Shown here: positions 1 to 29,378 of the stretch, in pieces
Layout of the letters: each line of letters starts with the position of its first letter
Numbering within the stretch: the first letter of the stretch is position 1
Source of the DNA: Candidatus Oxydemutatoraceae bacterium
Lineage (GTDB): Bacteria > Pseudomonadota > Gammaproteobacteria > Poriferisulfidales > Oxydemutatoraceae
NCBI GenBank assembly: GCA_965218975.1
Contig: OZ244717.1
Coordinates: 1,696,001-1,760,000, forward strand
Length of the DNA: 64,000 nt
Direction: 5' to 3'
The notes under the pieces: generated by a model
The model's input: only the letters and a program-made list of their open reading frames with translations
The model's database searches: none
Told to the model about the DNA's origin: nothing
Program-made: the position numbers and the translations under genes

Positions 1-928
1 CATTCCAGGTCTTCATATAGTCTCGCCCTTCCTTCGCATAACGTACTTTTTGGTCAATCGTTATTGCTCCGTAGGAAATTATGCCGTCGGCATGTTTACG
101 TTCGTTATCAATGGGATTGATCGCGGCATTCCCAGATAAAAGGAACTGCGATATGTACGGACCGACATCATCACCGGGGGTGATGCCGCGAAATGCGTTT
201 TCACGAGTTAGTTGGCTTCTTTTACGACTGCGTTCATGCGCGGTCAATTGACAGCAAGACTCATTCTTAAACCAATCCAATTCGTTAAGCAACTTGATCA
301 AATCGTCAACTTTCTCTGAATGATCGTCTGGAATACTAGCAATATTAACTTTCCGGTTCTCAATGCTTGTAAATGGAATATCCCTCAATAATGCCTGCGC
401 ATAAACTTCGCCCATTTCGGCAGTGAGCTCTTTGCTCCCTATCGCCGGGGCAGGTGGCATGGTCACAGCTTGAGCGTCAGGTCCTTCCAGATCAAATGTG
501 TTGCCGACAGCCTGACTTTCCCATCCACGAATTTTTGCCGGTCCTGAGTCCATTGCAGAGTCAACACACTTATCGCCTTTGCCGTATTCAACGTTCTGAG
601 CTGCTTCGGAGTGCCAGTTGCGCTTTTGTGCCGGTCCGAGCCTAGTGTTAATAAAATCCTGAGGATCGCTACTATCACACCCCTGAACAAACTTTTCAAA
701 GTCTTCGGAGGAAGCCACTAGCCCGGTATGGTGGTTATGCGGCATACCTTTGGTAAAGCTAGCCAAGTAGGACGGCTGATTAAACTCACCGTGCGTTCCA
801 ACCTTACAGATGATGCGAAACTTCTGTTCATCACCGTTCGCGACATGACGCGGATGCGGCCGCTCTGCAGCCAGTTCGGCAGCGGAGCACCTGACCTTGA
901 ACGCTTCTTGTAATCTGTATTTATTCAT
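1..928 (-). CDS. Vanadium-dependent haloperoxidase (bromoperoxidase-type), N-terminal ~309 aa; runs off the window edge and is absent from the ORF track
   Basis: Manual translation from ATG at 928 (RBS AAGGAG) gives MNKYRLQEAFKVRCSAAELAAERPHPRHVANGDE...SFTKGMPHN...FDLEGPDAQAVTMPPAP...ELTAEMGEVYAQALLRDIPF...FRGITPGDDVGPYISQFLL...YGAITIDQKVR...DYM. These motifs match algal/cyanobacterial V-bromoperoxidases. The vanadate-binding motifs lie outside the window. Confidence 0.9.
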   Translation of the reverse strand, partial: MNKYRLQEAFKVRCSAAELAAERPHPRHVANGDEQKFRIICKVGTHGEFNQPSYLASFTKGMPHNHHTGLVASSEDFEKFVQGCDSSDPQDFINTRLGPAQKRNWHSEAAQNVEYGKGDKCVDSAMDSGPAKIRGWESQAVGNTFDLEGPDAQAVTMPPAPAIGSKELTAEMGEVYAQALLRDIPFTSIENRKVNIASIPDDHSEKVDDLIKLLNELDWFKNESCCQLTAHERSRKRSQLTRENAFRGITPGDDVGPYISQFLLSGNAAINPIDNERKHADGIISYGAITIDQKVRYAKEGRDYMKTWN

Positions 929-1106
929 TCCGTTCTCCTTCAGGTTAACTATTTACAAAGGATAAGGCACTCCCACCTATTGCTGTTTGTTTTTATTCGC
1001 ACACTGATATTCCCCTTTTTTGTCTTTTTGTAATAGCTCGTCTCGCTCATCTTCTTGAAGAGGCACCAGTAATGCCGACCACTGATCTATGCTCAAACCC
1101 GATTTG

Positions 1107-2429
1107 TTATTTGACAACCGAAACCGTAACGGTTTTTGAATGCCCGATAGTATCGGCAATATAGAGTACGTACTCACCCGCCCCCACCTCTGCAGTGGCG
1201 TTGATAGTAATTGCATGATCGCCCGGCGGAAAAGGATCCTCAACTGTAAGACTGTCCTTCTTTGGCGGGCTTGATAGAAATCGTGCGAAATAGGGTGATT
1301 TCCCACCCTTGACAATAATCTTCGCTTCGCTTGCGGTTTTCGCCTTCATCTGAATCCGGGCGGGTGACACCGAAATATCGGTAGTCACGTTCACGTCGCA
1401 CTTCTTCAGCATTGTGATCGGCTGTTTTTTATTTACCTCATTAACAATCGCGCTTACATGCAATGCCGTCGTGTCAAGCTTTAAACTTTCACTCCTAAGT
1501 GTCCTGACCGCAACCTTAAGAGATTGATTATTTAAAACTGCGAGTGTATCATCTGCTTTATCATCTGCTTTATCATCTGTAGGTACAGCAAAAATTTTCG
1601 TGGCAGCGTATAATTGGCTGATGATGTTAGACAATGCTTCCAGCTTAGGCTGCGATTGTCGGATGGCATCATCGACAGCACTCCCGATACGATCAACGGA
1701 TACCACAAGTTTACTCCCGCTCGTTTGTATCTGTCGGTGTAAGCTTTTCCCCGCGATGTAAGCTAAGTTAGCTGTCTCGACGATTTGTTCGGCTTCGGCC
1801 ACTGCTGCGTCTGCAGCCTGTGCATCATCCGTCCCTGCCTTGCCCTTTTTTCGTAGTTCCTTTACTCTCAAAATGGCTTGCTGTACTGAGTCAATCTGAC
1901 TCTTTAAACTTTCCAAGTCATCCTCAAAACCTGATTTTCCACCTTCTTTTGTCTTGTTTGCCTTCTGTTGTTTACCTTCTGGAAAGTTCAGAGGTAAAAC
2001 CGCTTCCACCGCACAGTTCATGGCTTTCATGCCTTCAGCATAAATACGCTCCCGGATATCGTTCGAGAACCACTTGGCCAGCGTGTATCCCGTGCCGCCG
2101 GCAAGGCCGACACCCGCGAGAGCATCAGCATGTGCACCGTAGGTTGCAAGACCGAGCGCGGCAGCTCCCGAAAAAATCATGCCCACCGCTGTTCTATTAG
2201 TCATTTTGGCATGAGCTGCCAGCTTCTTACGATATGCCTTTTTGGCATCTTGGGCATATTTTATTGCTTCCGACAGCGTGGGGTTTGCTGGGTCCTGCGC
2301 ACTTAACGATCCCCACTCAACATAAGGGTTGATCATGCTGCAGCCTTGGAGCACCAGGGCACCGAAAATAACCACGGCGACAGCGAAGTGTCTGACTTTG
2401 AGCGCTTCCTGCAGTCTATATTTATTCAT
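1107..2429 (-). CDS. Lipoprotein of unknown function (440 aa): helical/coiled-coil body and beta-rich C-terminal domain
   Basis: Lipobox LVLQGC after a hydrophobic signal; glycine-rich hydrophobic hairpin; RBS AAGGAG; short DDKA repeat. Confidence 0.75.
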   Translation of the reverse strand: MNKYRLQEALKVRHFAVAVVIFGALVLQGCSMINPYVEWGSLSAQDPANPTLSEAIKYAQDAKKAYRKKLAAHAKMTNRTAVGMIFSGAAALGLATYGAHADALAGVGLAGGTGYTLAKWFSNDIRERIYAEGMKAMNCAVEAVLPLNFPEGKQQKANKTKEGGKSGFEDDLESLKSQIDSVQQAILRVKELRKKGKAGTDDAQAADAAVAEAEQIVETANLAYIAGKSLHRQIQTSGSKLVVSVDRIGSAVDDAIRQSQPKLEALSNIISQLYAATKIFAVPTDDKADDKADDTLAVLNNQSLKVAVRTLRSESLKLDTTALHVSAIVNEVNKKQPITMLKKCDVNVTTDISVSPARIQMKAKTASEAKIIVKGGKSPYFARFLSSPPKKDSLTVEDPFPPGDHAITINATAEVGAGEYVLYIADTIGHSKTVTVSVVK

Positions 2430-2519
2430 TTTGTTCTCCTTTGTCGGATGCTCCTACCACTTGCGCGCCATCCGTTATCAATAAATCCTCTGCGAGAAGT
2501 ACGGCATATCCCAACTCTT

Positions 2520-4136
2520 TTAAGATAACTTGCTTCGGGAAAGAAATGAGACAGTACGACTGCCAACAAGCAAGACAAGTCCTAACAACAATAGCAACCA
2601 TAAATCCATGGCGCCGGAGCCTCCGCCGCCTCCGCCAGAGCCTCCGCCGCTATTGCTGTAAGCAGGACGCGCCCTGTCATCGCAAACGGCAGTGTCATCA
2701 GGATAATAGCCATCGCCGTGTTCAAGAGCGCATGCGACTCTCCCGTCTTCAATGATTTTGCTCATCCTGGAAACCCGATTTCCACAAACATTACTCCTCC
2801 TACCATGAGTAAGCACGCCAACAACTTGTGTGTTTTGCCTTAGCCACATCGGACTCCCGGACGACCCTCTCGTAGACCCCCCTACTCGGTAGTGGGTGGT
2901 ATAGTGGCTACAGCCGGAAGAGTTATTACAAGAACTGAAAAGATCATTTAACTCATAATGATCAAGCGCCACAATTTCCGTTTGTAAGTAGTTTTGATCA
3001 GTGCCCCTCGCATGATGAAGCGCTTCAATTATTTCACCCCGAGACAAGGAAACGGAGCTCGAGCCTAATCGTAGAAATGTTGAAGCTGTCGTCGCTTGGA
3101 GATCTGATTCATCCACTGACAGCAGTGCATAATCTCCTCGCGCGTTAGCCGCAATAAATCTTGCGCCTGTCGCGCTAATTCTTTGATCGGCGGGAACGCA
3201 ATCCGAAACACCGATCGCAATAGAGATATTCACAAAAGTGCCTATCGGCATTTCAGGGTTAGTGCCGGCATCAATGCAGTGATACGCCGTCAAAAGATAA
3301 ACATGATCATCACTGGCACCGGTGCCGGTATTCAGCAGTCCTGCAGTGCACTGCGCCCCGCTTCCTTGACCAGGAGGGGGAGTATAATTTATACGGGCCA
3401 CGCCTCTCCACCGCTCAACTCCATCAGGAAAAACACACAAGTTGTTTCCAAAAGGGCAGTCGGAGTGACTTTGCGGAACGGCAAAGGAGTGGCTATTGAG
3501 TTGCTGAATGTTACCGGCAGCATCTCTGAAGTGATGGTCTAAATGATATATGGCAAACGGAAAAGCATCCGGGGACACAGCAGATTGAGTCCATACTTCA
3601 ACAACCACTGTGTCATCCGGAATCAATGGCGACCAGAAGCCCGCGCCATCGGCCGGCCCTTTGCCGACATACTCACCGACAAAAGATGCGGGATTATCTT
3701 TCAGTCCATATACTTTTACAGACATTTCGTCATTCAGGTCAAACCGGGAAAACCACACCTTGACACCCAGTGCTTCGGGAGAATAAATGTGCAACTGCCA
3801 GATATTGAAGCTGTCTCGTTGTCCGACCGGATGCCAGTTGCTCTGATTAACGCTTACCGCTCTGCTAATACTCGTATAGAGTTTGCGTTTATCCTGAATC
3901 AGACTGACAATTTCTCTCTCCTCTTCTTCACTGAGTAAAGGCAACTCCAGCCTGACGTCATCCGGGTATTCTGATGCCAGGTCGCGGGCATGCTCTATCT
4001 CCCTCGGTTGCACTTCCACCTCTTCCATCCTCATTTCCGACACATCGGAGTAAGCGATCTGAAAAAACGAAAGAATGAAAATCCCCGCCGGAATAAGCAA
4101 GGTTTTATATTTCATAGTATTCATCTTAGCCTCCAA
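2520..4136 (-). CDS. Secreted trypsin-like serine protease (lysyl-endopeptidase-like) with GlyGly-CTERM anchor
   Basis: Signal peptide; pro-domain; catalytic motifs TAYHC, GDYALL and GSSGSP; C-terminal GGGSGAMDLWLLLLLGLVLLVGSR. Confidence 0.88.
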   Translation of the reverse strand: MEAKMNTMKYKTLLIPAGIFILSFFQIAYSDVSEMRMEEVEVQPREIEHARDLASEYPDDVRLELPLLSEEEEREIVSLIQDKRKLYTSISRAVSVNQSNWHPVGQRDSFNIWQLHIYSPEALGVKVWFSRFDLNDEMSVKVYGLKDNPASFVGEYVGKGPADGAGFWSPLIPDDTVVVEVWTQSAVSPDAFPFAIYHLDHHFRDAAGNIQQLNSHSFAVPQSHSDCPFGNNLCVFPDGVERWRGVARINYTPPPGQGSGAQCTAGLLNTGTGASDDHVYLLTAYHCIDAGTNPEMPIGTFVNISIAIGVSDCVPADQRISATGARFIAANARGDYALLSVDESDLQATTASTFLRLGSSSVSLSRGEIIEALHHARGTDQNYLQTEIVALDHYELNDLFSSCNNSSGCSHYTTHYRVGGSTRGSSGSPMWLRQNTQVVGVLTHGRRSNVCGNRVSRMSKIIEDGRVACALEHGDGYYPDDTAVCDDRARPAYSNSGGGSGGGGGGSGAMDLWLLLLLGLVLLVGSRTVSFLSRSKLS

Positions 4137-4645
4137 AGCACGTTGCGCTTAAAAAGCGACAAAGTCGTGCGGCTGTTGAGTTTCTGGACTGCCTGCGCCG
4201 GGGCGCAGTGACTGGTTTCTTACATAAAGAGTGATCTATAGCAACATTGATCGTCTGATCGTCTATCATCTTCCGGACGTCCTCCTGTTTAATTAGCTTT
4301 TTTTAATCTTGTTGTTTGTGGGCTAATTACCTAATCTGATAAAGACTCTAAACGACTAATATTAAAATTGGAATAGTTAAAATTAACTAAATTTTCTATT
4401 TGATTATTCAATCCTCGCTCGCGCGAGATATTAGCTGTTGGGAATAAATCATCCATCGCAAACTCATCCGGTACCTGCATTACAAAGCCTGGCTGGCGGC
4501 GCGTGCATGGCGGCGAAACCCGGTATTCGGCCGTCGAGCACTAACGCTGTAGATTAGATATGTTGGATGAAGCGGTTTAGAAACCTTTATCGATTCAAAG
4601 AAACCATGATCGGGTTGAAGGTCAGGCATCAACCCTGGGGGGCGA

Positions 4646-4723
4646 TTATTCGGACACTGAAACTTCTGCTATGAGTTTCACGGGTAGCCCTTTATATTGG
4701 CGGTACTGGTTCCAGAACAGTGC
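4646..4723 (-). pseudogene. Duplicated 3' end (25 codons) of the 10347-11267 gene, copy A
   Basis: Encodes ALFWNQYRQYKGLPVKLIAEVSVSE* versus native ALLWNQYRQYKGLPVKPIAEVSVSE*. Confidence 0.9.
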
Positions 4724-4918
4724 ATAAGCTCAGAAACATTTAGCACTCAAATCGTCGCTCTGCGCGCTTCTATCACAGTCGGACTTTGTCTAGTGGCATG
4801 AAAATCTAGGAATCTAAACTTCTCAGTAGCTTCCACGCTTCCACGAGGAAACCCGGATAATTAATATTAGCCGGTACTCGTGCGGGCCCACGAAGATGAA
4901 TCGTGAAGGACCGGAGTG

Positions 4919-5191
4919 CTATTGGCCGGAGAAAAACCCGGCCGCTGTGAACATAAGTCCCATTGCAATGACGATGGTACCAGCAATGATAATGTTCCAC
5001 CGGATCATCTCAGCCTTTATTCCAGCCAGATCAGTTTTTAACTCGGTTCTTAACTCGGCCAACCCTATTTTTAAATCCGCTGTAGTTACGACATCATCTG
5101 TATGTGCAAGTGTATCTGCGACAGATTTAGCCTGTTCTTCACTAACACGGGGAATCTTTTTTAAGACTTCATATAATTCAATGGTGCTCAT
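4919..5191 (-). CDS. Small coiled-coil protein with C-terminal TM helix (DUF1640/CCDC90-like), 90 aa
   Basis: MSTIELYEVLK...VTTADLKIGLAELRTELKTDL...EMIRW followed by a hydrophobic tail; this pattern is typical of the family. Confidence 0.65.
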   Translation of the reverse strand: MSTIELYEVLKKIPRVSEEQAKSVADTLAHTDDVVTTADLKIGLAELRTELKTDLAGIKAEMIRWNIIIAGTIVIAMGLMFTAAGFFSGQ

Positions 5192-5232
5192 GGTTTCAGC
5201 ATAGCCGATTTCAGAAGATATTATGCACACGA

Positions 5233-5833
5233 TGTATACGATGCCACCCTAAATGGGATTCTTGAAGAGCTTCTGGGTGAGACGCGCCCGGAAAACCGAT
5301 CGGTTTTCAGCGGGGTTTTCAGCGGCGAACGACCCGACAAGGACGTCGGGGCTGGGGCTTATTGACAGCACGAAGTCGCGTCATGGACGACAGGCACTTG
5401 AGCTTGGCGCAGGCGTTTGATTTCACGCTGAACCGATTGCGGCCAGATCCGCCAGCGCCTCTTGCGCGGCGCTTTGCCACGGTCACGCATGGCACTGAGC
5501 TCGATGCGGCGATAGCCCCAGCACCAGCAGTACAAAGTACTGCGACCGACCTTGAATGCGCTCGGTGACACCCGATCTGTAGTTTCCCCTGTATATGGAT
5601 CCACCACATATTGCACATTAGCGTTGTTGAATGACGGTCTGATGGGTTCAATCCCAGTCCTTTGTGCGAACGTAATCTGTTGTACCGAACCAGCCGACCT
5701 GCCGGTTTTGCATTGAAACGATCAAGGTCTTGAAACGGCAGATCCTCTGATGCGGTGGCCGATGTGCTGATATTACGTGCCGATCATCTTTTTGTTGACG
5801 CCCAAAAATCCAGTATGTATCTGCACACGTACA
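5233..5833 (-). mobile_element. IS481-family remnant (mosaic of transposase N-terminus and two right-end variants)
   Basis: TGT-starting ends; HTH fragment FKVGRSTLYCW...KAPRKRRWRIWPQ; C-terminal fragments ...SHLGWHR and ...CNMWWIHI. Confidence 0.75.
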
Positions 5834-5902
5834 CCAGATCAAATTGAGAGCCAGCAGATTTTTAGAGGGGTCGGGTTGGTGTCTTTTTACGAGCTGTAAG
5901 CA

Positions 5903-7051
5903 TTAAACCCCCACTTCGTGAGCAGATCTCAATACAGGAGAAAGCTTGGAAGGAAGCGAATGACGAACTTGCCAGAAGGGAGCGTCGGGCCATCGTTGTT
6001 CCATCCTATAATATGCGATCTTGGTTTCGAGATAGGTCAAGAAGTCTCGCGCGAGAGTGTGCGAATAGTTCTGAAGGGCTTCTTTGTCTCCTTGGAGATG
6101 CGCAACAACCGCATCAGCGGCCACCGCACCGTGGCGTAGACCCTTAGAGATTCCTTCCGAGGAGAGCGGATCATAGGCTTGGGCTGCATCTCCGGTGGCG
6201 ACCCATGCATCGCCCACTATTCGGTCGGACAACTGACTGTTTGCGATTTTTACTTGGACCGGGCCAGCGAGAATACGTCCGACGCACCGAGCTGCGGTGC
6301 AGGGCGCGAGGGCCAGATGTTTATGCCACGTAGCCTCTGGCGATTGGCAACCGTGGCGTATCATATTGGCTTCTGACATCCAAGTTGCGATCATGCGACC
6401 GGAAGCCAGTTGCACGGAATACCACCATCCAGCCTCGGTAGCTTCAATGAGTAACCGGCCGTTGTCGCCTTTGTCTTCTCGCGGTGCCTCCAGAATACCA
6501 ATGATCGCGGCAAGTCGATCAAAACGGTGGATCTTCGCACCGAGACGACGAGTGAGCCAAGCAGTCCTGCCCGTAGCGTCGACAAGAAAACGTGCGTGGG
6601 CGACTAATCCTTTTGCATCACCAGCCAGCGGCACGGCCCAGCCGGAATCTATCGGCGAGGCTCCGACAGCATACGACGCGTTCAATATCCGTACACCGCG
6701 TTCTATTGCCTGAGCCCGTAATCCCGCATCAAACCTTGGGCGGTCCAAGTTGATGCCCGAGCCATGTGGGCTGGTCATGTAGTCGCGCGTCATAAGATCA
6801 GGTCCGCCCCATGCAGACTCGATGAATGGACAAGGGGCGTGCTCCGGCGAAGCGATCAGAGTGCCAAGACCCATGGCATGTAGTGCAACTACACCCTCGG
6901 GCGATAAGTGCTCGCCGACCGTTCCTTCCGTCCCGTCGGATCGTTCAATAACGACTACATCCAGACCATGGCTTTGGGAAGCGATTGCGACTGCGCATCC
7001 GGCGGGACCGGAGCCGAGAACGATCAGGTCGGTAGAAACGTCGGCGTTCAA
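5903..7051 (-). CDS. LodB/GoxB-like FAD-dependent flavoprotein (CTQ maturation)
   Basis: GSGPAG Rossmann motif, DATGR, GDAAQAYDPLSSEGI and the C-terminal YY..EQRWP..PFW typical of LodB; lies directly downstream of the lodA-like gene. Confidence 0.85.
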   Translation of the reverse strand: MNADVSTDLIVLGSGPAGCAVAIASQSHGLDVVVIERSDGTEGTVGEHLSPEGVVALHAMGLGTLIASPEHAPCPFIESAWGGPDLMTRDYMTSPHGSGINLDRPRFDAGLRAQAIERGVRILNASYAVGASPIDSGWAVPLAGDAKGLVAHARFLVDATGRTAWLTRRLGAKIHRFDRLAAIIGILEAPREDKGDNGRLLIEATEAGWWYSVQLASGRMIATWMSEANMIRHGCQSPEATWHKHLALAPCTAARCVGRILAGPVQVKIANSQLSDRIVGDAWVATGDAAQAYDPLSSEGISKGLRHGAVAADAVVAHLQGDKEALQNYSHTLARDFLTYLETKIAYYRMEQRWPDAPFWQVRHSLPSKLSPVLRSAHEVGV

Positions 7052-7084
7052 GAAGTTACCGACGGCGGATCAGAGACAAATCAA

Positions 7085-8602
7085 TCACTTCTTCTCAACG
7101 TATTGATTACCTTGCTGCAGGACGAAACGCAACGTGCTCCAATTGTCAACCATGTCTTTGGCGGTCCAACTGCTTGGCATCCAATCGCCCGGAGTGCCAT
7201 TCCTCTTAATCACCCAGTCTGGTCGTTGTGCCGGCCACCACCCTGCACCACAGTCTTTGAAATCTGCTTGCCAAGGACAGGCCAAGCCAGCAGTGATTGA
7301 GCCAGCCAAGAATTTTGAGTCATTGATACGGAATGGCAGGCGGTAAGTGTCCTTCCTCGCCATGATATATCCCGCCTCAATCCCGGGCCAAAAGGGACCG
7401 CCAATGCAGGCATCAAGAGCCGCTTTGTCCAACGCAAGCGGTTGATTTGCCATTGGGATCTGTTGAAAAGGCGGTGGAACCGGTGGTGGTGCTTGCCAGT
7501 CCGGTGTAAATTGCCCGTTCTCCCATTTGTGCATCAGTTCGAGCTGAAGGGACGTCAGCTGGGCTGGCTGGTCTTCCCGGCTGGTGAAGGGATTGTCTGG
7601 GTCGAGACCGGGGTGTAACCGGGGCATGTTGGCTATGCCGTCACCGCCCGGACGCCGAAGCCTCTTGTAAACATCCCAACGTGCCTTCTTGTTCGCACTC
7701 GTATTACTCGACAATGCTTTCAATCGGAATGGTTTAAGGAAGTTGCCGCCACCCGTCCCTGGACCATGGCCTTTATGCGCAAGCTGACTGACCCATTGTA
7801 GGAGCACTGTGCGCTCGAGAATCGGATAGATGTCGCGTGTGAACGATACCGGAGAGAGTCGCGCACGGAGCGATGGTTCCATTTGTACGGCCACATTCAA
7901 CGCTTGGTCCCACAGAGTTACTACATTGTTGATTGCCGGTGCATAGCTCGGCGGCGCAACAATAAGCCATGCGGAGTCGCAGGGGGTAGGTTCTTTACCT
8001 TCGAATTGGACGGTGGCTCGCACCGGACCGTCGGAAACATCGTCGTGCCAATCGGGGTTGTTGGCAAAATCAGGTAGCGGGGCTCCCGAGGGATAGGAGC
8101 TTGATTTACCCCTGCCGCCCAAGACGACTAATTGACCGCCTTGGTCCGTACGCAGGTGCCCTAAAATGACAGGGTTCCCCTTGAATTGACCGGACAACTT
8201 GACAGGGCCGCTGCCCGAACCTGAAATGCTCTGGGATCCGGCATCAATGTTTAGCTCATCCGCAGATGTATTTGGATTGCGAAGATTAGGATTAGGGGGA
8301 GGGTTCGGAGGAAACTCAGGGGCCGATGCCTTGGTGTTCGCCAGATGCACGGTCCACCTGATCGTCGCATCATCATCTCCGGTGATCTCTCGCACTACTT
8401 TGCCGAGGCGACCGGAATCATCGGACTCATACTCATAGACACGGAATCGGGCGCCCTGACGCTTTAGACGACCCTCGGCGTCTCGATAGAGTCCTGCAGG
8501 AACAATCCCTGGAGCCTCCGGACCAATGAAGTATTCATCAGGGCTGTTGCCTAAGCGGGCAACGCCAATTCCTGGATGGATGCGGTAGATCTTTGTCGAC
8601 AT
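7085..8602 (-). CDS. LodA/GoxA-family CTQ-dependent amino-acid oxidase (505 aa)
   Basis: YRIHPGIGVARLGNS, NNPDWHDDVSDGPV, CIGGPFWPGIE (CTQ Cys), PWQADFKDC and WWPAQRPD (CTQ Trp); RBS GGAGG. Confidence 0.93.
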   Translation of the reverse strand: MSTKIYRIHPGIGVARLGNSPDEYFIGPEAPGIVPAGLYRDAEGRLKRQGARFRVYEYESDDSGRLGKVVREITGDDDATIRWTVHLANTKASAPEFPPNPPPNPNLRNPNTSADELNIDAGSQSISGSGSGPVKLSGQFKGNPVILGHLRTDQGGQLVVLGGRGKSSSYPSGAPLPDFANNPDWHDDVSDGPVRATVQFEGKEPTPCDSAWLIVAPPSYAPAINNVVTLWDQALNVAVQMEPSLRARLSPVSFTRDIYPILERTVLLQWVSQLAHKGHGPGTGGGNFLKPFRLKALSSNTSANKKARWDVYKRLRRPGGDGIANMPRLHPGLDPDNPFTSREDQPAQLTSLQLELMHKWENGQFTPDWQAPPPVPPPFQQIPMANQPLALDKAALDACIGGPFWPGIEAGYIMARKDTYRLPFRINDSKFLAGSITAGLACPWQADFKDCGAGWWPAQRPDWVIKRNGTPGDWMPSSWTAKDMVDNWSTLRFVLQQGNQYVEKK

Positions 8603-9255
8603 GTTATGTTGCCTCCAAGAAGAGTCTGCGGCATATAGCCTCAGAGCAAAGGTTGAACTTCCTTAATGAATTGGACAACGCATAGTTGATGGGGCCCGAA
8701 CTCAAGGCAACTGTGTCGCCCGGATAGGCGGGATCGTATATCGTCAGTCTTGTCTTTTTGTCACTCACTGTTCCTGCATTCCAATATCGTTTCCTGTCGG
8801 GACATCTCAATGAGAGTTAACCAATTCAACATCAGTATTAGTTGTGCCTAACACACTGCACTGTACGTGCCAAATATTTCTGAGCTTGTATATACCTCAT
8901 TTAATTAGTTAGCATTTTTTAATCTTGTTTGCGGACTAATTATCCAATTTGATAAAGACTAGACGACTAATCCAATAATTAAAATAGTTAAAATTAACTA
9001 AATTCTTATTTGATTATTTGATCCTCGCTTGCACGAGATATTATCTATTGGGAATAAATCATCTGACGCAAACTCATCCGGTGCCTGCATTACAAAGCCT
9101 GACCGGCGGCGCGTACATGACGGCGAAAACCGGTATTCGGCCGTTGAGCGCTAACGCCGTAGATGAAATACGTTGAATGAAGCGGTTTAGAAATCTTTAT
9201 CGGTTCAAAGAAACCATGATCGGGTTGGGAGTAGACAATCAACCCTGAGGGGCGA

Positions 9256-9333
9256 TTATTCGGACACTGAAACTTCTGCTATGGGTTTCACGGGTAGTCC
9301 TTTATATTGGCGGTACTGATTCCGGAGCAGTGC
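9256..9333 (-). pseudogene. Duplicated 3' end of the 10347-11267 gene, copy B
   Basis: Encodes ALLRNQYRQYKGLPVKPIAEVSVSE*, followed by the same GGGTTG..CAACCC hairpin as the native gene. Confidence 0.9.
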
Positions 9334-9528
9334 ATAAGCTCAGAAACATTTAGCACTCAAATCGTCGCTCTGCGCGCTTCTATCACAGTCGGACTTTGTC
9401 TAGTGGCATGAAAATCTAGGAATCTAAACTTCTCAGTAGCTTCCACGCTTCCACGAGGAAACCCGGATAATTAATATTAGCCGGTACTCATGCGCGCCCA
9501 CGAAGATGAATCGTGAAGGACCGGAGTG

Positions 9529-9802
9529 CTATTGGCCGGAGAAAAACCCGGCCGCTGTGAACATAAGTCCCATTGCAGCGACGACGATACCAGCAATGAT
9601 AATGTTCCACCGGATCATCTCAGCTCTTATCTCAGCCAAATCAGTTTTTAACTCGGTTCTTAACTCGGCCAGCCCTATTTTTAAATCCGCTTTAGTTACG
9701 GACATCATCTGTATGTGCAAGTGTATCTGCGACAGATTTAGCCTGTTCTTCACTAACACGGGGAATCTTTTTTAAGACTTCATATAATTCAATGGCACTC
9801 AT
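9529..9802 (-). pseudogene. Frameshifted copy of the DUF1640-like gene
   Basis: One extra base near 9701 (gttacgGacatc versus gttacgacatc in copy A) splits it into two ORFs; span is 274 nt versus 273 nt. Confidence 0.8.
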
Positions 9803-9841
9803 GGTTTCAGTATAGCCGATTTCAGAAGATATCATGCACGA

Positions 9842-10232
9842 TGTATACGATGCCACCCTAAATGGGATTCTTGAAGAGCTTCTGGGTGAGACGCGCCCGG
9901 AAAAACGATCGGTTTTCAGCGGCGAACGACCCGACAAGGATGTCGGGGCTGGGGCTTATTGACAGCACGAAGTCACGTCATGGACGACAAGTACTTTGCT
10001 GACAAACTTGCACCAAGCACTGTGTTGATAATCTGCTACTAAACACAAAACGGGTGAAACGCGCTCGGAAAACTGAACGGTTTTCAGCGGGGTTTTCAGC
10101 GGGGTTTTCAGCGGCAAACGACCCGACAAGGACCCCGCAGGGACATCAGGGCTGGGGTTCATTGACAGAACCAAGTCTCGTCATGGACGCCAAGCACTGA
10201 CGACAGACACTTTGCCGGGTTGTGACCAGATC
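9842..10232 (-). mobile_element. IS481-family end remnant with two structured repeats
   Basis: TGTATACGATGCCACCC end; repeat copies at 9885 and 10053; the second has a triplicated 12-mer GGTTTTCAGCGG. Confidence 0.7.
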
Positions 10233-10346: not shown

Positions 10347-11267
10347 TTATTCGGACACTGAAACTTCTGCTATGGGTTTCACGGGTAGTCCTTTATATTG
10401 GCGGTACTGATTCCAAAGCAACGCTCTTTTCCGTGGGTCCTTCTCGCTTTGAGCGGCTTGGCGAAGTTCTTTCTCAATGATGCTGTCGTTATCGGCCGCA
10501 GGGATGTCATCCGGTAGCTTGCCATTATCCAATGCATCGTTATCTTGATCCTGATCAAGCTGACGCGCCGACGGGAACACGCCATCTTCCGAGGTATCTT
10601 GGCCGTCACCCGGCAAGCCTTTGGTTGCTTCCTGTAAATCGGGTTCATCGCCGATAAGGCCGCGGCTTCTTATCGAGGTTTTCTGATGATCGTCCGGATC
10701 AATTTTTTGACCATCGGTATCAACAAGATATTCTTCTTTCGCCTCAGGTAAGCCACCCGAAAGACCGCGGCTTCTTATCGGATTTTGTTGGGAAGCTTGC
10801 TGACTACTTTGTTGATTATTTTCAACGGCGGAATCCTCATTTTGCGCTTCCGTTGACGCCGGGGGTTGACCATTTCCCTGCTGAACGTTCTCATCCTGAG
10901 AACCTTTATCCTCTGCTTCCGATAATTCCTGCTCGCTTCCCTGTCGGCCTTCGCTATCGGCGCTGCCGTCACCCGCAGCGCCATCCGAACCGCTTGCTCC
11001 GTCTGATCCTGTATTGCCGGATTGACCATCAGCGGAAGAATTTTCTTCCGTGCATTCGGTAAACCTCGTCAGGGAATCATCAAATTCCTGACTCATAATC
11101 GCGATCCGCTCCTCTTGTGTAAGCAGCTCTTCCAACTCAAAATCAAACTGGTTTTTATCGCAGTCTTGTACGTCGGATAAATCATTCGCCTGCGACAGGC
11201 TGAGAAACGCGCTCATTGCCAACCACAAAATAACCGCAAAGCCGTAACGTTTTATCAGCATGTTCAT
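10347..11267 (-). CDS. Secreted acidic low-complexity protein (306 aa) with a compact helical C-terminal motif
   Basis: Signal peptide; D/E/Q/S/G-rich linker; two IRSRGL repeats; C-terminal PDDIP..D..I...LRQAA..E.DP....LW..YR.YKG. Confidence 0.8.
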   Translation of the reverse strand: MNMLIKRYGFAVILWLAMSAFLSLSQANDLSDVQDCDKNQFDFELEELLTQEERIAIMSQEFDDSLTRFTECTEENSSADGQSGNTGSDGASGSDGAAGDGSADSEGRQGSEQELSEAEDKGSQDENVQQGNGQPPASTEAQNEDSAVENNQQSSQQASQQNPIRSRGLSGGLPEAKEEYLVDTDGQKIDPDDHQKTSIRSRGLIGDEPDLQEATKGLPGDGQDTSEDGVFPSARQLDQDQDNDALDNGKLPDDIPAADNDSIIEKELRQAAQSEKDPRKRALLWNQYRQYKGLPVKPIAEVSVSE

Positions 11268-11412: not shown

Positions 11413-12369
11413 TCATTTCAGCGCGATAAACGTCCCGCGGCTATGACGGGATACTTCGCGCATCAAAATTCCGAAGCGATCGGGATGACCGCCTCCGGCG
11501 GCGTTATAAAAACCGATACCGTGAATGCTTGCCATAGGTTCCCGGGTACGCCTATCGATATTCAATTTATAAATTGTGTTGATGACCAAATCATAAGATG
11601 AGCCGGTGTAATCATCCCCGAAGATATAAACCGCAGTTTTTTTGCCGGGCTTCACGTACTTGCGCAGCGCCACTTCCAAACCTTCTACCGGACTGCTGTC
11701 GGAAATTGCATTCCATGATCTCATCAAATCGAGAGCCCGAGACCGGCTGCTCGTTGTATCTGATATCCATTTCCCTCGATAACCGGAAATCAGATGATGC
11801 CCGTTATCGTTCAAGACCTGAAAACCTTTGACTTTGGGATGAATGTCCAAAACGTTTTCAAGCGTATTAATCACTCGGCCCCAGATTTCTTTCATTGAAC
11901 CCGAAGTATCAAGAATAAACACGACGTAATGCGCGCCCACGGGTATGCCGCCCACTGCAGGATCCGGCTCATCGGTGTCGTCTGCGGAAATAGCAGCGGA
12001 GGCGGCGAAGGCAGGGGCAAGCGCGGCGCGTAAATGAGCCGTTTGACCCTTCAAATCACCGGCTTCCGATCTGAGTTTCGCAAGCATTTGTTGATTTTTT
12101 TCAATCAGATTTTGGACCTGCCTCTCTCGTGCCAGGGATTCGGTAAGCTCGGACGACAACTGTTCCGACTTAGCTTGCAGACTGACACCGGACACTTCCG
12201 CCTGACCTAACTTTGAAAGAAGGTCGGCAATGCGTGCGACGTCTTCGGTGCCGCCGATATCGGATGTCTTGGAAAGCAATACCAACATCACAATCACGCC
12301 GAAGCCGCATGAAATAACGTCAAGGAAAGAGAGACCAAAAATCTCCATATCGCGAGAACGCTTTTTCAT
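11413..12369 (-). CDS. Membrane-anchored vWA-domain protein 2 (ExbD/TolR-like TM with Asp, coiled coil, vWA), 318 aa
   Basis: Start MKKRSR overlaps the upstream stop (ATGA); TM FGLSFLDVISCGFG; MIDAS DTSGS. Confidence 0.85.
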   Translation of the reverse strand: MKKRSRDMEIFGLSFLDVISCGFGVIVMLVLLSKTSDIGGTEDVARIADLLSKLGQAEVSGVSLQAKSEQLSSELTESLARERQVQNLIEKNQQMLAKLRSEAGDLKGQTAHLRAALAPAFAASAAISADDTDEPDPAVGGIPVGAHYVVFILDTSGSMKEIWGRVINTLENVLDIHPKVKGFQVLNDNGHHLISGYRGKWISDTTSSRSRALDLMRSWNAISDSSPVEGLEVALRKYVKPGKKTAVYIFGDDYTGSSYDLVINTIYKLNIDRRTREPMASIHGIGFYNAAGGGHPDRFGILMREVSRHSRGTFIALK

Positions 12370-13421
12370 GGCCACGACGCTTCCGGTGCAATAAGCAAGC
12401 CATCGGAGTTTGACGTCCATTGCCAGAAGACCGGAGAGGCGGATGTGTCGCCTTCCAGAGGCAGTAAAACAACGTTCACCACCGCTTTGCTGCGAAAATC
12501 GGCAATAGCCCGTTTAAGTAGTTTAACGCGGCATTCGCTGCTGATGGTCGTGGCTTTACCCAGGATTGATTTACAGCCGGAAAAAATCGAGTGAGACGTA
12601 CCACCCTTCGTCGGTAATCCGTCCGTAACGACATAAACGTTGGTAAAACCTTTGGCTTTGAGCTTCATCATACTAATGGCGGCGTCAAGGTTCGTTCCGC
12701 CGTTCGGCGCTATTTTTGAAAAAGCCAGCTTTATTTCACCGATACCCTTCAGACCGCCGCCTTTTTTCCAGCCGCCCTGGCCCACCACTTTCGCTTTATC
12801 ATTAAAGTGAATCACCATATATTCGCTTTCCGCAGGCGCTCGCGCAAGCAACCATTCCAAAATGCGTTTGGTGCGTTGCCACTTTGGCGCCCGAATCCTC
12901 TGCGCGGGCGGTGAAACCTTATGTTTGATAATATCAACAATACGTTCATCCGTCATTGAGGCGCTCGAATCAATAAGCATTACGATTTTCCTACCTTCAA
13001 CTTTAAGCCCTAAAAGATAGTTCTGTAACCGCTTACGATCCAGCGGAACCGGCACAGACGAGACTTCGGGAGATGCGGTCATCTTTTTTTCCAACTCGGT
13101 GACTTGTTGTTTGAGAGACTCGTTTGACGACTTTTGCGCGGTAACATCGTTGCGAATGCTTTTCAGACGTGCGGATAAATCCGTCACTCCCGAATTCTGC
13201 GCGGAAATTCTTGCCTGCAACGATGCGGCAGACTGATCCGTTTGCTCATTTTGCTTCTCCAACTGAATCAGCTCGATCAAAAGAGCGCCCACCTTCTCCT
13301 GCGGTAATTCGGTTTGAAACTTCACCAGCATAAAAATTAATACGACCGCGCCCAAACCGCAGGACATGATGTCCAGAAAGGCTATGTTGAATCCTTCAGT
13401 CTTTCTTCGGGAACGTATCAC
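12366..13421 (-). CDS. Membrane-anchored vWA-domain protein 1 (ExbD/TolR-like TM with Asp, coiled coil, vWA)
   Basis: TM FNIAFLDIMSCGLG; coiled coil; MIDAS DSSAS, GGTNL and VTDG. Confidence 0.87.
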   Translation of the reverse strand: MIRSRRKTEGFNIAFLDIMSCGLGAVVLIFMLVKFQTELPQEKVGALLIELIQLEKQNEQTDQSAASLQARISAQNSGVTDLSARLKSIRNDVTAQKSSNESLKQQVTELEKKMTASPEVSSVPVPLDRKRLQNYLLGLKVEGRKIVMLIDSSASMTDERIVDIIKHKVSPPAQRIRAPKWQRTKRILEWLLARAPAESEYMVIHFNDKAKVVGQGGWKKGGGLKGIGEIKLAFSKIAPNGGTNLDAAISMMKLKAKGFTNVYVVTDGLPTKGGTSHSIFSGCKSILGKATTISSECRVKLLKRAIADFRSKAVVNVVLLPLEGDTSASPVFWQWTSNSDGLLIAPEASWP

Positions 13422-26108: not shown

Positions 26109-26227
26109 AGCCCGGCGATGTCCTACTTTCACATGGGGAAACCCCACACTATCATCGGCGATGTACCGTTTCACTTCCGAGTTCGGAATGGGATCGGGTG
26201 GTACCAATACTCTAATGCCGCCGGGCA
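26109..26227 (-). rRNA. rrf: 5S rRNA
   Basis: CCCATTCCGAACTCGGAAGTGAAAC...GATGATAGTGTGGGG...GAAAGTAGG on the minus strand, with paired ends. Confidence 0.97.
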
Positions 26228-26491
26228 AACTAGTTGTGTAACTATATACGTTATTTAAGTATCTTTAAGTAAAGCACCAATCTATAATATCAAGCACTCA
26301 TCCGACAATGGCCATGCCGACAAAAATCAAACCGGACAACCCAGCGGATGTCATTATCACTAATCATCCGCTCCATCGCCATACCTAAACAACATCAATG
26401 AGCATAGACAAGCAAATCAGCTTGTCTTGCTATAACAATCCATCGAAAAAACAATGCAATAATTTTTAAGTTCAAATTACTTGAGCGTTAT

Positions 26492-29378
<2,887 letters not shown>

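What the first reader, a model, noticed from the sequence alone, without database searches (positions are those of the whole stretch)
1..8602. H2O2-producing CTQ oxidase (LodA/LodB-like) co-located with a vanadium haloperoxidase: candidate self-fuelling halogenation / HOBr system
Seen: lodA-like, lodB-like, protease, lipoprotein and a V-haloperoxidase are all on the minus strand within 8.6 kb, and both blocks sit behind copies of the same promoter-region duplication. Known: LodA/GoxA enzymes release H2O2 from amino acids, and V-haloperoxidases use H2O2 to oxidise Br-/I-. Inference: a co-regulated oxidase-peroxidase pair for antimicrobial, antifouling, quorum-quenching or halometabolite chemistry, analogous to DUOX/lactoperoxidase. 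I do not recall this pairing being described. The haloperoxidase is invisible in the ORF track.
Basis: partly seen in the sequence, partly recalled or inferred. Interest (0 to 1): 0.8.

Follow-up and report, generated by a model that had tools for sequence, protein, structure and literature searches.

The report
Quinone oxidase genes beside a bromoperoxidase
A peroxide-making oxidase operon and a vanadium bromoperoxidase gene really do lie side by side here, but the oxidase looks like a newcomer to this genome and the pairing almost never recurs elsewhere, so a built-in self-fuelling halogenation system remains an untested possibility.

Summary
On the minus strand lie a LodA-like CTQ oxidase (7085-8602), its LodB-like flavoprotein (5903-7051), a trypsin-like protease (2520-4136), a lipoprotein (1107-2429) and a vanadium haloperoxidase. 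The haloperoxidase starts at 928 and runs off the window. Completed from the genome it is 598 aa, matches the solved Acaryochloris bromoperoxidase at E 1.7e-194, and keeps all three vanadate-site motifs. A 1.1-kb direct repeat (4289-5399 and 8905-9996, 91.5% identical) lies upstream of both blocks.

The proposed coupling is poorly supported. LodA was found in 0 of 40 relatives, whereas the haloperoxidase occurs in four of them (two as fragments), next to a protease homologue in two. So lodAB is most likely an insertion bracketed by the repeat. Among 80 LodA-like loci from other species, none has a haloperoxidase of this type. Among 80 haloperoxidase loci, none has LodA.

One exception matters: a Xanthobacteraceae genome carries ferritin-like, lodA-like, lodB-like and chloroperoxidase-type haloperoxidase genes in a row.

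No RNA data were available.

My reading is a lineage-specific juxtaposition of two known enzyme systems (about 0.6). Real functional coupling gets about 0.25.

The parts
2..928 (-). First 309 codons of a vanadium-dependent bromoperoxidase-type haloperoxidase. The gene runs 866 nt beyond the left edge of the window (full gene G000:C1:1695135-1696928, 598 aa).
   Evidence: PDB 5LPC E 1.7e-194 and 1QHB E 1.2e-148 over the full length. Residues K413, R421, H472, G478, H479, R547 and H553 are invariant in 21 homologues.
877..940 (.). 64-nt direct repeat, copy 1: ribosome-binding site plus the first 13 codons of the haloperoxidase.
   Evidence: family D7, 80% identical to 2378-2441. Translations.
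1107..2429 (-). 440-aa predicted lipoprotein with no known family. Its first 13 residues are copied from the haloperoxidase start, followed by a hydrophobic stretch and an L-Q-G-C lipobox.
   Evidence: sequence; no family; Atlas: only unnamed clusters. The lipobox was read by eye.
2378..2441 (.). 64-nt direct repeat, copy 2, at the lipoprotein start.
2520..4136 (-). 538-aa secreted trypsin-like serine protease. Its C-terminal tail is Gly-rich, then hydrophobic, then basic (GlyGly-CTERM-like).
   Evidence: Trypsin_2, Trypsin; sequence. A rhombosortase gene is present in the genome at 141.8 bits, above the cut-off of 84. No GlyGly-CTERM model hit. Homologues lie near the haloperoxidase gene in G002 and G001.
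4289..5399 (.). 1.1-kb direct repeat, copy A, upstream of the protease block.
4922..5191 (-). 90-aa small membrane-tailed ORF inside repeat copy A. It belongs to a multi-copy family in this genome. The copy in repeat B (9532-9802) is frameshifted in the assembly.
   Evidence: table 4, shows a 1-nt difference at 9700 in some contigs.
5400..5783 (-). Decayed transposase remnant immediately downstream of lodB, one of at least 55 such fragments in the genome.
   Evidence: The Pfam hit to HTH_Tnp_IS630 is weak (E 0.14).
5903..7051 (-). LodB-like FAD flavoprotein, the predicted maturase that builds the CTQ cofactor of the neighbouring oxidase.
   Evidence: FAD_binding_3, Trp_halogenase. (LodB 239.9 bits, GoxB 237 bits, QhpG 186.6 bits, all below the equivalog cut-offs).
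7085..8602 (-). LodA-like CTQ quinoprotein oxidase, 505 aa, of the short uncharacterised clade.
   Evidence: C451 and W456 align with LodA C516 and W581 and are invariant in 25 homologues.
8905..9996 (.). 1.1-kb direct repeat, copy B, upstream of lodA.
10347..11267 (-). 306-aa acidic secreted protein. Its last 25 codons are duplicated inside both repeat copies (4649-4723 and 9259-9333).

Best explanation
Two separate, known kinds of enzyme system lie next to each other because of a lineage-specific insertion.

System 1 is a bromoperoxidase-type vanadium haloperoxidase. It uses H2O2 to oxidise bromide or iodide. It sits in a neighbourhood that recurs, more loosely, in related genera: a secreted trypsin-like protease upstream and a LuxR-family regulator beside it.

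System 2 is a lodA-like/lodB-like operon. LodB-like is the flavoprotein that would build the cysteine tryptophylquinone cofactor in LodA-like. LodA-like would then oxidise an amine or amino acid of unknown identity, probably releasing H2O2.

The operon was acquired by this lineage alone. It landed in the repeat-rich intergenic DNA upstream of the protease, and the event left a 1.1-kb duplication on either side of it. A Campbell-type single crossover, or a duplication followed by an insertion, would give that picture.

Shown: the gene identities, the catalytic residues, the repeat anatomy, and the distribution among relatives and unrelated genomes.

Inferred: the direction of the event (insertion rather than loss in relatives), H2O2 release by this uncharacterised LodA clade, and bromide preference.

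Any feeding of LodA-made H2O2 to the haloperoxidase would be a by-product of proximity, not a dedicated system.
For: Identity of the parts:
-.
- The haloperoxidase keeps Arg410. This aligns with the position where the 8Q21 chain differs from 5LPC. PMC11871015 (passages read) reports that the R425S change there turns the Acaryochloris bromoperoxidase into a chlorinating enzyme.

lodAB as the newcomer:
- LodA_N was found in 0 of 40 relatives (36 of the 41 genomes searched, G000 included, are at least 90% complete), including all 18 other genomes of the family.
- The haloperoxidase is intact in G002 (two copies) and G015, and present as fragments in G001 and G012.
- A protease homologue lies about 3.5 kb upstream of a haloperoxidase gene in G002 and about 2.5 kb upstream in G001.
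- A LuxR-type helix-turn-helix lies next to the haloperoxidase in G000 and in G002.
- lodAB is bracketed by the 1.1-kb repeat, and a transposase remnant follows lodB.
- lodB and lodA have GC of 0.568 and 0.553, the 95th and 93rd percentiles of 746 long ORFs. The three neighbouring genes lie at the 63rd to 72nd percentiles.
- The best LodA homologues are only 66% identical and come from metagenomes.

No conserved pairing:
- 0 of 80 LodA-like loci hold a haloperoxidase of this type, while 68 of 80 hold LodB.
- 0 of 80 haloperoxidase loci hold LodA.
- No gene family recurs next to the haloperoxidase in more than 10 of the 80 loci.
- No PAP2 or VCPO domain appears among the best 120 of 659 long LodA fusion proteins.
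- A preprint on another bacterial haloperoxidase subfamily also reports variable, non-conserved genomic contexts (PMC11312541, passages read).
Against: - One unrelated genome (L084, labelled Xanthobacteraceae) has lodA-like, lodB-like and a chloroperoxidase-type haloperoxidase in an operon-like row. From rough gene densities I expect only about 0.03-0.08 such neighbours by chance in the 1.17 Mb of flanks examined (my arithmetic; Poisson).
- In that family, LodA and this haloperoxidase type co-occur in 7 genomes against about 3 expected (odds ratio 3.8, p 0.016; 3.3 and 0.038 without the index genome). Genome size and kinship confound this.
- The same 1.1-kb sequence lies upstream of both blocks in G000, so shared regulation is possible.
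- lodAB is intact and has the same contig depth as the haloperoxidase in 4 DNA runs of one study. A roughly 7% diverged lodB variant is also present, so the operon is not a very recent or decaying passenger.
- The GC deviation is modest.
- The haloperoxidase tree does not settle whether that gene is vertically inherited.
Confidence: 0.6

Rival explanations
1. One reading: in this organism the LodA-like oxidase is the dedicated H2O2 source for the haloperoxidase. The duplicated upstream region switches both blocks on together, and the cell makes hypobromous or hypoiodous acid from an amine or amino acid, O2 and halide. The product would serve antimicrobial, antifouling or signal-quenching chemistry.
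For: - The genes lie within 7.7 kb on the same strand, and 91.5%-identical 1.1-kb sequences lie upstream of both blocks.
- Both enzymes have complete catalytic residues.
- Neither has a signal peptide by inspection.
- There is a second, independent adjacency involving a different haloperoxidase clade and a different bacterial class (L084).
- Genome-level co-occurrence is weakly enriched in that family.
- Fusions of LodA-like proteins to a catalase-like domain show that this family is sometimes physically tied to a peroxide-handling partner (PMC4417212, passages read).
Against: - 0 of 40 relatives have LodA, although four carry the haloperoxidase or its remains.
- 0 of 80 LodA-like loci and 0 of 80 haloperoxidase loci show the reciprocal neighbour for this haloperoxidase type. 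Counting any type, the figure is 1 of 80.
- Where both genes occur in one genome they lie on different contigs: 5 of 5 genomes, and 6 of 7.
- The repeat is a mosaic of a pseudogene tail, a small ORF and a dispersed repeat, not a demonstrated promoter.
- H2O2 release has never been shown for this short LodA clade. Its frequent fusion partners are heme-oxygenase-like, ferritin-like and multicopper domains, which hint at other chemistry.
Confidence: 0.25
2. The haloperoxidase mainly acts as a peroxide sink that protects the cell from H2O2, including that made by the newly acquired oxidase. This would parallel the catalase-like domains fused to other LodA-like proteins. Halogenation would be a side reaction.
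For: - Catalase-domain fusions occur in group III LodA-like proteins (PMC4417212).
- The genome has only one catalase gene and no KatG.
- Both enzymes are predicted to be cytoplasmic, where H2O2 would be harmful (inspection).
Against: - The haloperoxidase occurs in relatives that have no LodA, so the enzyme family's presence in the group does not depend on the oxidase.
- Turning H2O2 into hypohalous acid inside the cell is not obviously protective (my reasoning).
- There is no comparative link.
Confidence: 0.08
3. The LodA-like protein is not an H2O2-releasing amino-acid oxidase at all. It would be a tailoring or oxidative enzyme of an unknown pathway, so the neighbourhood has no peroxide logic.
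For: - It scores far below the equivalog cut-offs for both characterised activities: GoxA 260 against 750 bits, LodA 166 against 600 bits.
- No member of the uncharacterised groups had been assayed as of PMC4417212 (passages read).
- Long relatives are fused to PF14518, PF12902, multicopper or galactose-oxidase-like domains and PF00384.
Against: The CTQ Cys and Trp and the partner LodB are conserved exactly as in the two characterised oxidases, both of which release H2O2 (PMC4417212 abstract).
Confidence: 0.07

Closest known systems
Acaryochloris marina vanadium bromoperoxidase (PDB 5LPC; variants 8Q20-8Q22) and the Corallina bromoperoxidases (1QHB, 1UP8)
   Same: - Full-length homology: E 1.7e-194 to 5LPC, and E 1.2e-148 to 1QHB with residues 5-598 aligned.
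- Identical lysine/arginine-proline, serine-glycine-histidine and arginine/histidine motifs.
- Arg at the position equivalent to R425 of the Acaryochloris enzyme.
   Different: - About 68 residues shorter than the deposited Acaryochloris chain (598 against 666).
- Comes from a small (2.08 Mb) non-cyanobacterial genome.
- Halide preference and activity are untested.
LodA/LodB (lysine epsilon-oxidase) and GoxA/GoxB (glycine oxidase) of Marinomonas mediterranea and Pseudoalteromonas
   Same: - LodA_N and LodA_C domains.
- Cys and Trp at the CTQ positions.
- The lodA-then-lodB gene order, here with a 33-nt gap. This is the family hallmark according to PMC4417212 (abstract and passages).
   Different: - 505 aa against 726 (LodA) and 816 (GoxA chain). 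Only 4 residues separate the CTQ Cys and Trp, against 64 in LodA.
- Scores are far below both equivalog cut-offs, so the substrate is unknown.
- It belongs to a large clade of roughly 500-aa proteins found in Nitrosomonas, Nitrosospira, Streptomyces, cyanobacteria, Acidobacteria and others.
LodA-like proteins fused to a catalase-like (pfam00199) domain, group III of Campillo-Brocal et al. 2015 (PMC4417212)
   Same: A CTQ oxidase is physically tied to a second domain that could handle peroxide. This is the nearest described precedent for pairing this oxidase family with an H2O2-using partner.
   Different: - A gene fusion, not a neighbour 5-7 kb away.
- A heme catalase fold, not a vanadium PAP2 fold.
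- No haloperoxidase domain was seen among the best 120 of 659 long LodA relatives.
Locus L084 (MAG labelled Xanthobacteraceae): ferritin-like, lodA-like, lodB-like and chloroperoxidase-type haloperoxidase genes
   Same: A LodA-like protein of the same short clade (37% identical), with LodB and a vanadium haloperoxidase on the same strand.
   Different: - The genes there are directly adjacent, with about 30 nt between lodB and the haloperoxidase.
- The haloperoxidase is of the Curvularia chloroperoxidase type (E 8.7e-45), has an N-terminal signal-like sequence, and is only distantly related to the one here (24% identity over 103 residues).
- A ferritin-like gene precedes lodA.
Animal DUOX/lactoperoxidase and NADPH oxidase/myeloperoxidase couples (recalled, no call)
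   Different: The enzyme families are unrelated. Coupling is demonstrated there and undemonstrated here.

Membership tests
Vanadium-dependent haloperoxidase (bromoperoxidase type, PAP2 superfamily) | Full-length homology to solved vanadium bromoperoxidases | tested here: met
   5LPC E 1.7e-194. 1QHB, 1UP8 and 8VGX score E 1e-145 to 1e-148 with residues 5-598 aligned. Pfam gives only a sub-threshold PAP2 hit (20.9 bits against 27.2).
Vanadium-dependent haloperoxidase (bromoperoxidase type, PAP2 superfamily) | Vanadate-binding and catalytic residues. Which motifs matter is recalled: a Lys...Arg-Pro motif, a His...Ser/Gly-Gly-His motif, and an Arg...His motif. | tested here: met
   the three motif stretches are identical to those of 5LPC. 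K413, R421, P422, H472, G478, H479, R547 and H553 are invariant in 21 homologues.
Vanadium-dependent haloperoxidase (bromoperoxidase type, PAP2 superfamily) | Halide oxidation with H2O2, and halide preference | not testable with these tools
   There is only an inference. Arg410 matches wild-type R425 of the Acaryochloris enzyme, whose R425S variant gains chlorination.
LodA/GoxA CTQ-dependent oxidase family | LodA_N and LodA_C domains | tested here: met
   9e-66 and 1.8e-26.
LodA/GoxA CTQ-dependent oxidase family | Cys and Trp aligned with LodA C516 and W581 (the CTQ precursors) | tested here: met
   Searches align C451 with C516 and W456 with W581. Both are invariant in 25 sequences. PMC4417212 names this as the family-wide feature.
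LodA/GoxA CTQ-dependent oxidase family | A lodB-like flavoprotein gene next to it | tested here: met
   the gene lies 33 nt downstream and scores 240 bits on the LodB model and 237 on the GoxB model. LodB was found in 68 of 80 homologous loci.
LodA/GoxA CTQ-dependent oxidase family | Equivalog-level match to lysine epsilon-oxidase LodA or glycine oxidase GoxA (that is, a known substrate) | tested here: not met
   GoxA 260 bits against a cut-off of 750; LodA 166 bits against 600. It is a family member, but not an orthologue of either characterised enzyme.
LodA/GoxA CTQ-dependent oxidase family | Release of H2O2 on substrate oxidation | not testable with these tools
   Not assayed for this clade as far as the passages read in PMC4417212 say.
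Conserved oxidase-haloperoxidase gene pair (the proposed system) | The two genes recur within about 10 kb of each other in other genomes | tested here: not met
   - 0 of 80 LodA loci hold this haloperoxidase type; 1 of 80 hold any type (L084).
- 0 of 80 haloperoxidase loci hold LodA. Only 41 of those 80 loci are at least 10 kb long.
-.
Conserved oxidase-haloperoxidase gene pair (the proposed system) | The pair is present in relatives of this organism | tested here: not met
   LodA_N was found in 0 of 40 relatives. The haloperoxidase is intact in 2 of them and present as fragments in 2 more.
Conserved oxidase-haloperoxidase gene pair (the proposed system) | Co-expression | not testable with these tools
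   No RNA run was listed.
Conserved oxidase-haloperoxidase gene pair (the proposed system) | Same cellular compartment | tested here: inconclusive
   No signal-peptide predictor was available. By inspection both N-termini belong to the conserved folds: the LodA_N profile starts at residue 9, and haloperoxidase residue 5 aligns with residue 31 of 5LPC.
GlyGly-CTERM / rhombosortase substrates (VesB-like proteases; family recalled) | A C-terminal Gly-rich motif, then a hydrophobic helix and a basic tail, with a rhombosortase in the genome | tested here: inconclusive
   The tail is visible. A rhombosortase is found at 141.8 bits, above the cut-off of 84. No NCBIfam model matched the protease or its tail, even at E up to 10.

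The most novel reading that the evidence does not exclude
CTQ oxidases of the short LodA-like clade have been recruited at least twice, independently, as built-in H2O2 generators for vanadium haloperoxidases. One case pairs with a bromoperoxidase type (this genome). The other pairs with a secreted chloroperoxidase type (L084). In this genome, duplication of a 1.1-kb upstream region would put both blocks under one control. That would give bacteria a self-fuelling hypohalous-acid system and would answer where bacterial haloperoxidases get their peroxide.
Probability: 0.15. Interest if true: 0.7.

Novelty: new member of a known kind. Interest (0 to 1): 0.4.

Why it matters
Where bacterial vanadium haloperoxidases get their H2O2 is not settled. 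A genetic link to a peroxide-making oxidase would give a directly testable answer and a two-enzyme halogenation cassette that needs no added peroxide.

The evidence here says such a link is at best rare: this genome and one other among the loci examined. Neither case has been shown to work as a couple. I found no paper describing the pairing.

The practical value of this check is threefold:
- it turns an attractive story into a defined experiment;
- it identifies a second locus, L084, that is a cleaner test case because the genes there are contiguous;
- it records that lodAB is a likely insertion into a repeat-rich, decaying genome.

Tried and rejected
- Expression: no RNA holder was listed, so co-expression was not tested.
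- Laying the four DNA runs showed lodAB and the haloperoxidase at similar contig depth. The one joint that skips lodAB (5390 to 9884) lies inside the roughly 125-nt repeat, which has at least 217 copies. I therefore do not read it as a form without lodAB.
- The promoter and terminator pattern scan gave no more sites than shuffles.
- Rfam found nothing in 4137-5902 at E up to 1.
- The Atlas search for the lipoprotein gave only unnamed clusters.
- No GlyGly-CTERM model matched the protease.
- The transposase remnant has only a weak Pfam hint (E 0.14). I rest that call on its at least 55 fragmentary copies.
- The haloperoxidase tree (24 rows: 21 of alignment A3 plus three from relatives, none dropped) places G000 between G002 copy 2 and the cosmopolitan clade. 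It does not decide between vertical and horizontal descent.
- My first haloperoxidase searches of the LodA loci used only the bromoperoxidase type. That is why L084 was missed until the generic motif scan. The scan recovered 74 of 80 known haloperoxidase loci, so it can miss some.
- Whole-genome haloperoxidase searches covered the genomes of 50 of the 80 LodA loci (49 genomes). Of the other 30, only L084's genome was searched.
- Supplementary tables of PMC4417212, which list group membership, were closed. I therefore could not place this protein in that paper's groups I to V.
- I considered a structure prediction or a complex prediction and dropped both. The haloperoxidase is well aligned to solved structures over its whole length, and nothing suggests the two enzymes bind each other.

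Full report
WHAT IS THERE

The window is G000:C1:1696001-1760000 of a single-contig genome of 2.081 Mb. Five genes lie on the minus strand in the first 8.6 kb.

- The LodA-like gene (7085-8602, 505 aa) has Pfam LodA_N at 9e-66 and LodA_C at 1.8e-26.
- Thirty-three bases downstream lies a LodB-like flavoprotein (5903-7051, 382 aa). It scores 240 bits on the NCBIfam LodB maturase model and 237 on the GoxB model, both below the equivalog cut-off of 400.
- After 1766 bases without a long gene comes a trypsin-like protease (2520-4136, 538 aa).
- Next is a 440-aa ORF with no family (1107-2429).
- Last is an ORF that starts at 928 and leaves the window.

Read on from the genome, this last gene is 598 aa (G000:1695135-1696928).

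THE HALOPEROXIDASE IS REAL AND COMPLETE

Against all solved structures, the 598-aa protein matches the Acaryochloris marina vanadium bromoperoxidase 5LPC at E 1.7e-194. It matches the red-algal Corallina bromoperoxidases at E 1e-145 to 1e-148 over residues 5-598.

The three stretches that form the vanadate site in this superfamily are identical to those of 5LPC (the motif definition is recalled). Residues K413, R421, P422, H472, G478, H479, R547 and H553 are invariant in an alignment with 20 homologues.

Arg410 aligns with the single position at which chain 8Q21 differs from 5LPC. Passages of PMC11871015 report that this change, R425S, turns the Acaryochloris bromoperoxidase into a chlorinating enzyme. 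I therefore predict a bromide or iodide preference. That is an inference.

The family is very large and spread over many phyla: at least 7971 proteins at E 1e-10 or better, with the best at 64-66% identity and source names from Methylococcales, Chloroflexota, Planctomycetota and cyanobacteria.

THE OXIDASE IS A FAMILY MEMBER WITH UNKNOWN SUBSTRATE

A profile of 25 homologues aligned to LodA (3WEU) places C451 on LodA C516 and W456 on LodA W581. These are the two residues that form cysteine tryptophylquinone. Both are invariant in the 25 sequences.

PMC4417212 (abstract and passages) states that these two residues and a neighbouring lodB-like gene are the family hallmarks. LodB was found in 68 of 80 homologous loci.

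The protein scores far below the equivalog cut-offs for glycine oxidase (260 against 750 bits) and lysine oxidase (166 against 600 bits). It belongs to a large clade of roughly 500-aa proteins. H2O2 release is therefore inferred, not shown.

Long relatives of this clade are fused mostly to a heme-oxygenase-like domain (PF14518). Others are fused to multicopper or galactose-oxidase-like domains, PF00384, PF13519 or a ferritin-like domain. None of the best 120 of 659 carries a PAP2 or VCPO domain.

THE REPEATS

A direct repeat of 1.1 kb (4289-5399 and 8905-9996; 91.5% identical over 1113 nt) lies upstream of both blocks and brackets lodAB. Each copy contains, in transcription order:
- a roughly 125-nt element present at no fewer than 217 sites in the genome;
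- a 90-aa ORF of a multi-copy family, intact in copy A and frameshifted in copy B;
- the last 25 codons of gene 10347-11267;
- an AT-rich tail.

Directly downstream of lodB is a fragment of a transposase N-terminus, of which the genome holds at least 55 decayed copies and no full one.

This picture suggests a foreign segment integrated into a repeat-rich spacer, with duplication of the flanking sequence. It is not a tidy promoter duplication. A promoter may still lie in the AT-rich tail. The pattern scan cannot tell, with 10 sites found against 10.4 expected.

A separate 64-nt repeat gives the lipoprotein gene the same ribosome-binding site and first 13 codons as the haloperoxidase. Because that N-terminus is conserved across the haloperoxidase family, the lipoprotein is the borrower.

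WHO IS OLD AND WHO IS NEW

- Among 40 relatives, LodA_N was found in none. These include all 18 other genomes held for the family, 16 of which are at least 90% complete.
- The haloperoxidase is intact in G002 (two copies) and G015, and is present as fragments in G001 and G012.
- A homologue of the protease (38% and 33% identical) lies about 3.5 kb upstream of a haloperoxidase gene in G002 and about 2.5 kb upstream of the fragment in G001. No such homologue was seen within the 20 kb fetched for G015 and G012.
- The genes in between differ. G002 has a glucose/sorbosone dehydrogenase and a cytochrome c; G001 has a Fic protein.
- Downstream of the haloperoxidase in G000 is a 370-aa LuxR-family regulator. 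A matching helix-turn-helix lies just upstream of haloperoxidase copy 1 in G002.
- lodB and lodA have GC of 0.568 and 0.553, the 95th and 93rd percentiles of 746 long ORFs. The haloperoxidase, lipoprotein and protease lie at the 63rd to 72nd percentiles. This deviation is modest.
- In four DNA runs of one study, lodAB and the haloperoxidase have similar contig depth. A lodB variant about 7% diverged is also present.

So the operon is established in the population.

IS THE PAIR CONSERVED ELSEWHERE?

LodA-anchored test. I took the 80 best of at least 560 loci in one-genome-per-species contigs, with up to 10 kb on each side (1.29 Mb in all).
- tblastn with the five G000 proteins found LodB in 68 of 80 loci. 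It found the haloperoxidase, protease and lipoprotein in 0 of 80.
- An HMM of the haloperoxidase alignment also found 0.

Haloperoxidase-anchored test. I took the 80 best of 426 metagenome loci, of which 41 are at least 10 kb long.
- LodA was found in 0 of 80 by tblastn and by HMM. There was one weak FAD-domain hit.
- No neighbour family was shared by more than 10 loci.

Whole genomes.
- Of 49 genomes behind the first 50 LodA loci, 5 hold a haloperoxidase of this type.
- In all 5 it lies on a different contig from every LodA-like gene. Some of those contigs are short, so adjacency across a gap cannot be excluded there.

THE EXCEPTION

A scan with the generic three-motif pattern recovered 74 of the 80 known haloperoxidase loci and the G000 protein as controls. 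It hit one of the 80 LodA loci, L084, a MAG labelled Xanthobacteraceae.

There, on one strand, lie:
- a ferritin-like gene;
- a LodA-like gene (LodA_N 6e-62);
- a LodB-like gene;
- about 30 nt further on, a 602-aa protein that matches the Curvularia vanadium chloroperoxidase at E 8.7e-45 and has PAP2, VCPO_2nd and VCPO_N hits.

phmmer and jackhmmer searches with that protein found no other case among the 80 loci.

In 151 genomes of that family:
- 21 have this haloperoxidase type;
- 22 have LodA_N;
- 7 have both, against about 3 expected (odds ratio 3.8, p 0.016; 3.3 and 0.038 without the index genome);
- only the index genome has them adjacent.

Genome size and shared ancestry can produce such an excess.

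From rough gene densities I expect 0.03-0.08 chance neighbours in the flanks searched. The densities are about one haloperoxidase gene per 17-36 Mb. One observed case is therefore suggestive, no more.

READING

The best-supported account is a lineage-specific juxtaposition. A haloperoxidase already sat in a loosely conserved neighbourhood with a secreted protease and a LuxR-type regulator. The lodAB operon was then inserted upstream.

The protease has a signal-like N-terminus and a Gly-rich, hydrophobic, basic C-terminal tail, and the genome encodes a rhombosortase. It and the lipoprotein are therefore envelope or surface proteins. The two redox enzymes have no signal peptide by inspection. 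The five genes do not look like one machine.

Functional coupling between oxidase and haloperoxidase is chemically sensible and is not excluded. Three things keep it alive at roughly one chance in four: the shared upstream repeat, the intact state of all parts, and the L084 operon.

I found no paper that describes this pairing. The term sets 'LodA' with 'haloperoxidase' (one unrelated paper), 'vanadium', 'bromoperoxidase', 'amino acid oxidase' and 'gene cluster' (none), and 'haloperoxidase', 'amino acid oxidase' and 'hypobromous' (none) gave nothing relevant.

The nearest described precedent is the fusion of LodA-like proteins to a catalase-like domain (PMC4417212).

VERDICT

- Both enzymes are new members of known families.
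- The pairing is rare, and coupling is unproven.

Noticed in passing
window 5274-5399, 9884-10005, 10052-10199 and nine further sites (25300, 30076, 32096, 32449, 32907, 38095, 38447, 38957, 55414): A roughly 125-nt element occurs at no fewer than 217 sites across the 2.08-Mb genome. Median identity is 92%, both strands are hit equally, and 12 copies lie in this window. It has no Rfam match. It looks like a MITE- or REP-like dispersed repeat.
   Followed up: partly
window 5400-5783 and at least 54 other places in G000: Fragments of a transposase N-terminal helix-turn-helix occur at least 55 times. None sits in an open frame longer than 120 aa. This is a fully decayed insertion-sequence family, which together with the small genome suggests past genome erosion.
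   Followed up: partly
window 877-940 and 2378-2441: The lipoprotein gene has borrowed the ribosome-binding site and first 13 codons of the haloperoxidase gene. The borrowed basic residues now serve as the n-region of a lipoprotein signal peptide.
   Followed up: partly
G000:C1:1693948-1695060 (just left of the window; L004:314-1426, minus strand): A 370-aa LuxR-family regulator (GerE helix-turn-helix, unknown N-terminal domain) lies 71 nt downstream of the haloperoxidase. A related helix-turn-helix lies next to haloperoxidase copy 1 in relative G002. It is a candidate regulator of the haloperoxidase.
   Followed up: partly
window 26110-29378; 16S at G000:C1:1781754-1783306: The 23S and 5S rRNA genes lie in the window, but the only 16S gene is about 56 kb away. 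The rRNA operon is therefore unlinked.
   Followed up: no
window 2586-4086: The protease gene shows dense strain-level differences among contigs of the four DNA runs. The first 2577 bases (haloperoxidase and lipoprotein) are covered by a contig with no differences. This may mean diversifying selection on a surface protease.
   Followed up: no
L014 (G002:C3:1158000-1177999): Relative G002 carries two haloperoxidase paralogues 6 kb apart. Around them lie a protease, a glucose/sorbosone dehydrogenase, a cytochrome c and three proteins with PPC domains or no family. This is a larger haloperoxidase neighbourhood than in G000.
   Followed up: partly
L084:8294-14583: A Xanthobacteraceae MAG has ferritin-like, lodA-like, lodB-like and chloroperoxidase-type haloperoxidase genes in a row. 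Ferritin-like and LodA domains also occur fused in one protein (P0371). This contiguous cluster is the better place to test oxidase-haloperoxidase coupling.
   Followed up: partly
window 4922-5191; G000 about 1806-1808 kb and 1839-1842 kb: The 90-aa ORF in the repeat belongs to a family of about 20 paralogues (40-59% identical), clustered at two other places in the genome. Function is unknown, and the only Pfam hit is a faint one to DUF7508.
   Followed up: no
window 11413-13421: Two adjacent paralogous membrane proteins (27% identical, no Pfam hit) are followed by a MotA/ExbB-like gene and a protein with PEGA and FGE-sulfatase domains. This is an unexplained envelope gene cluster upstream of the finding.
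   Followed up: no
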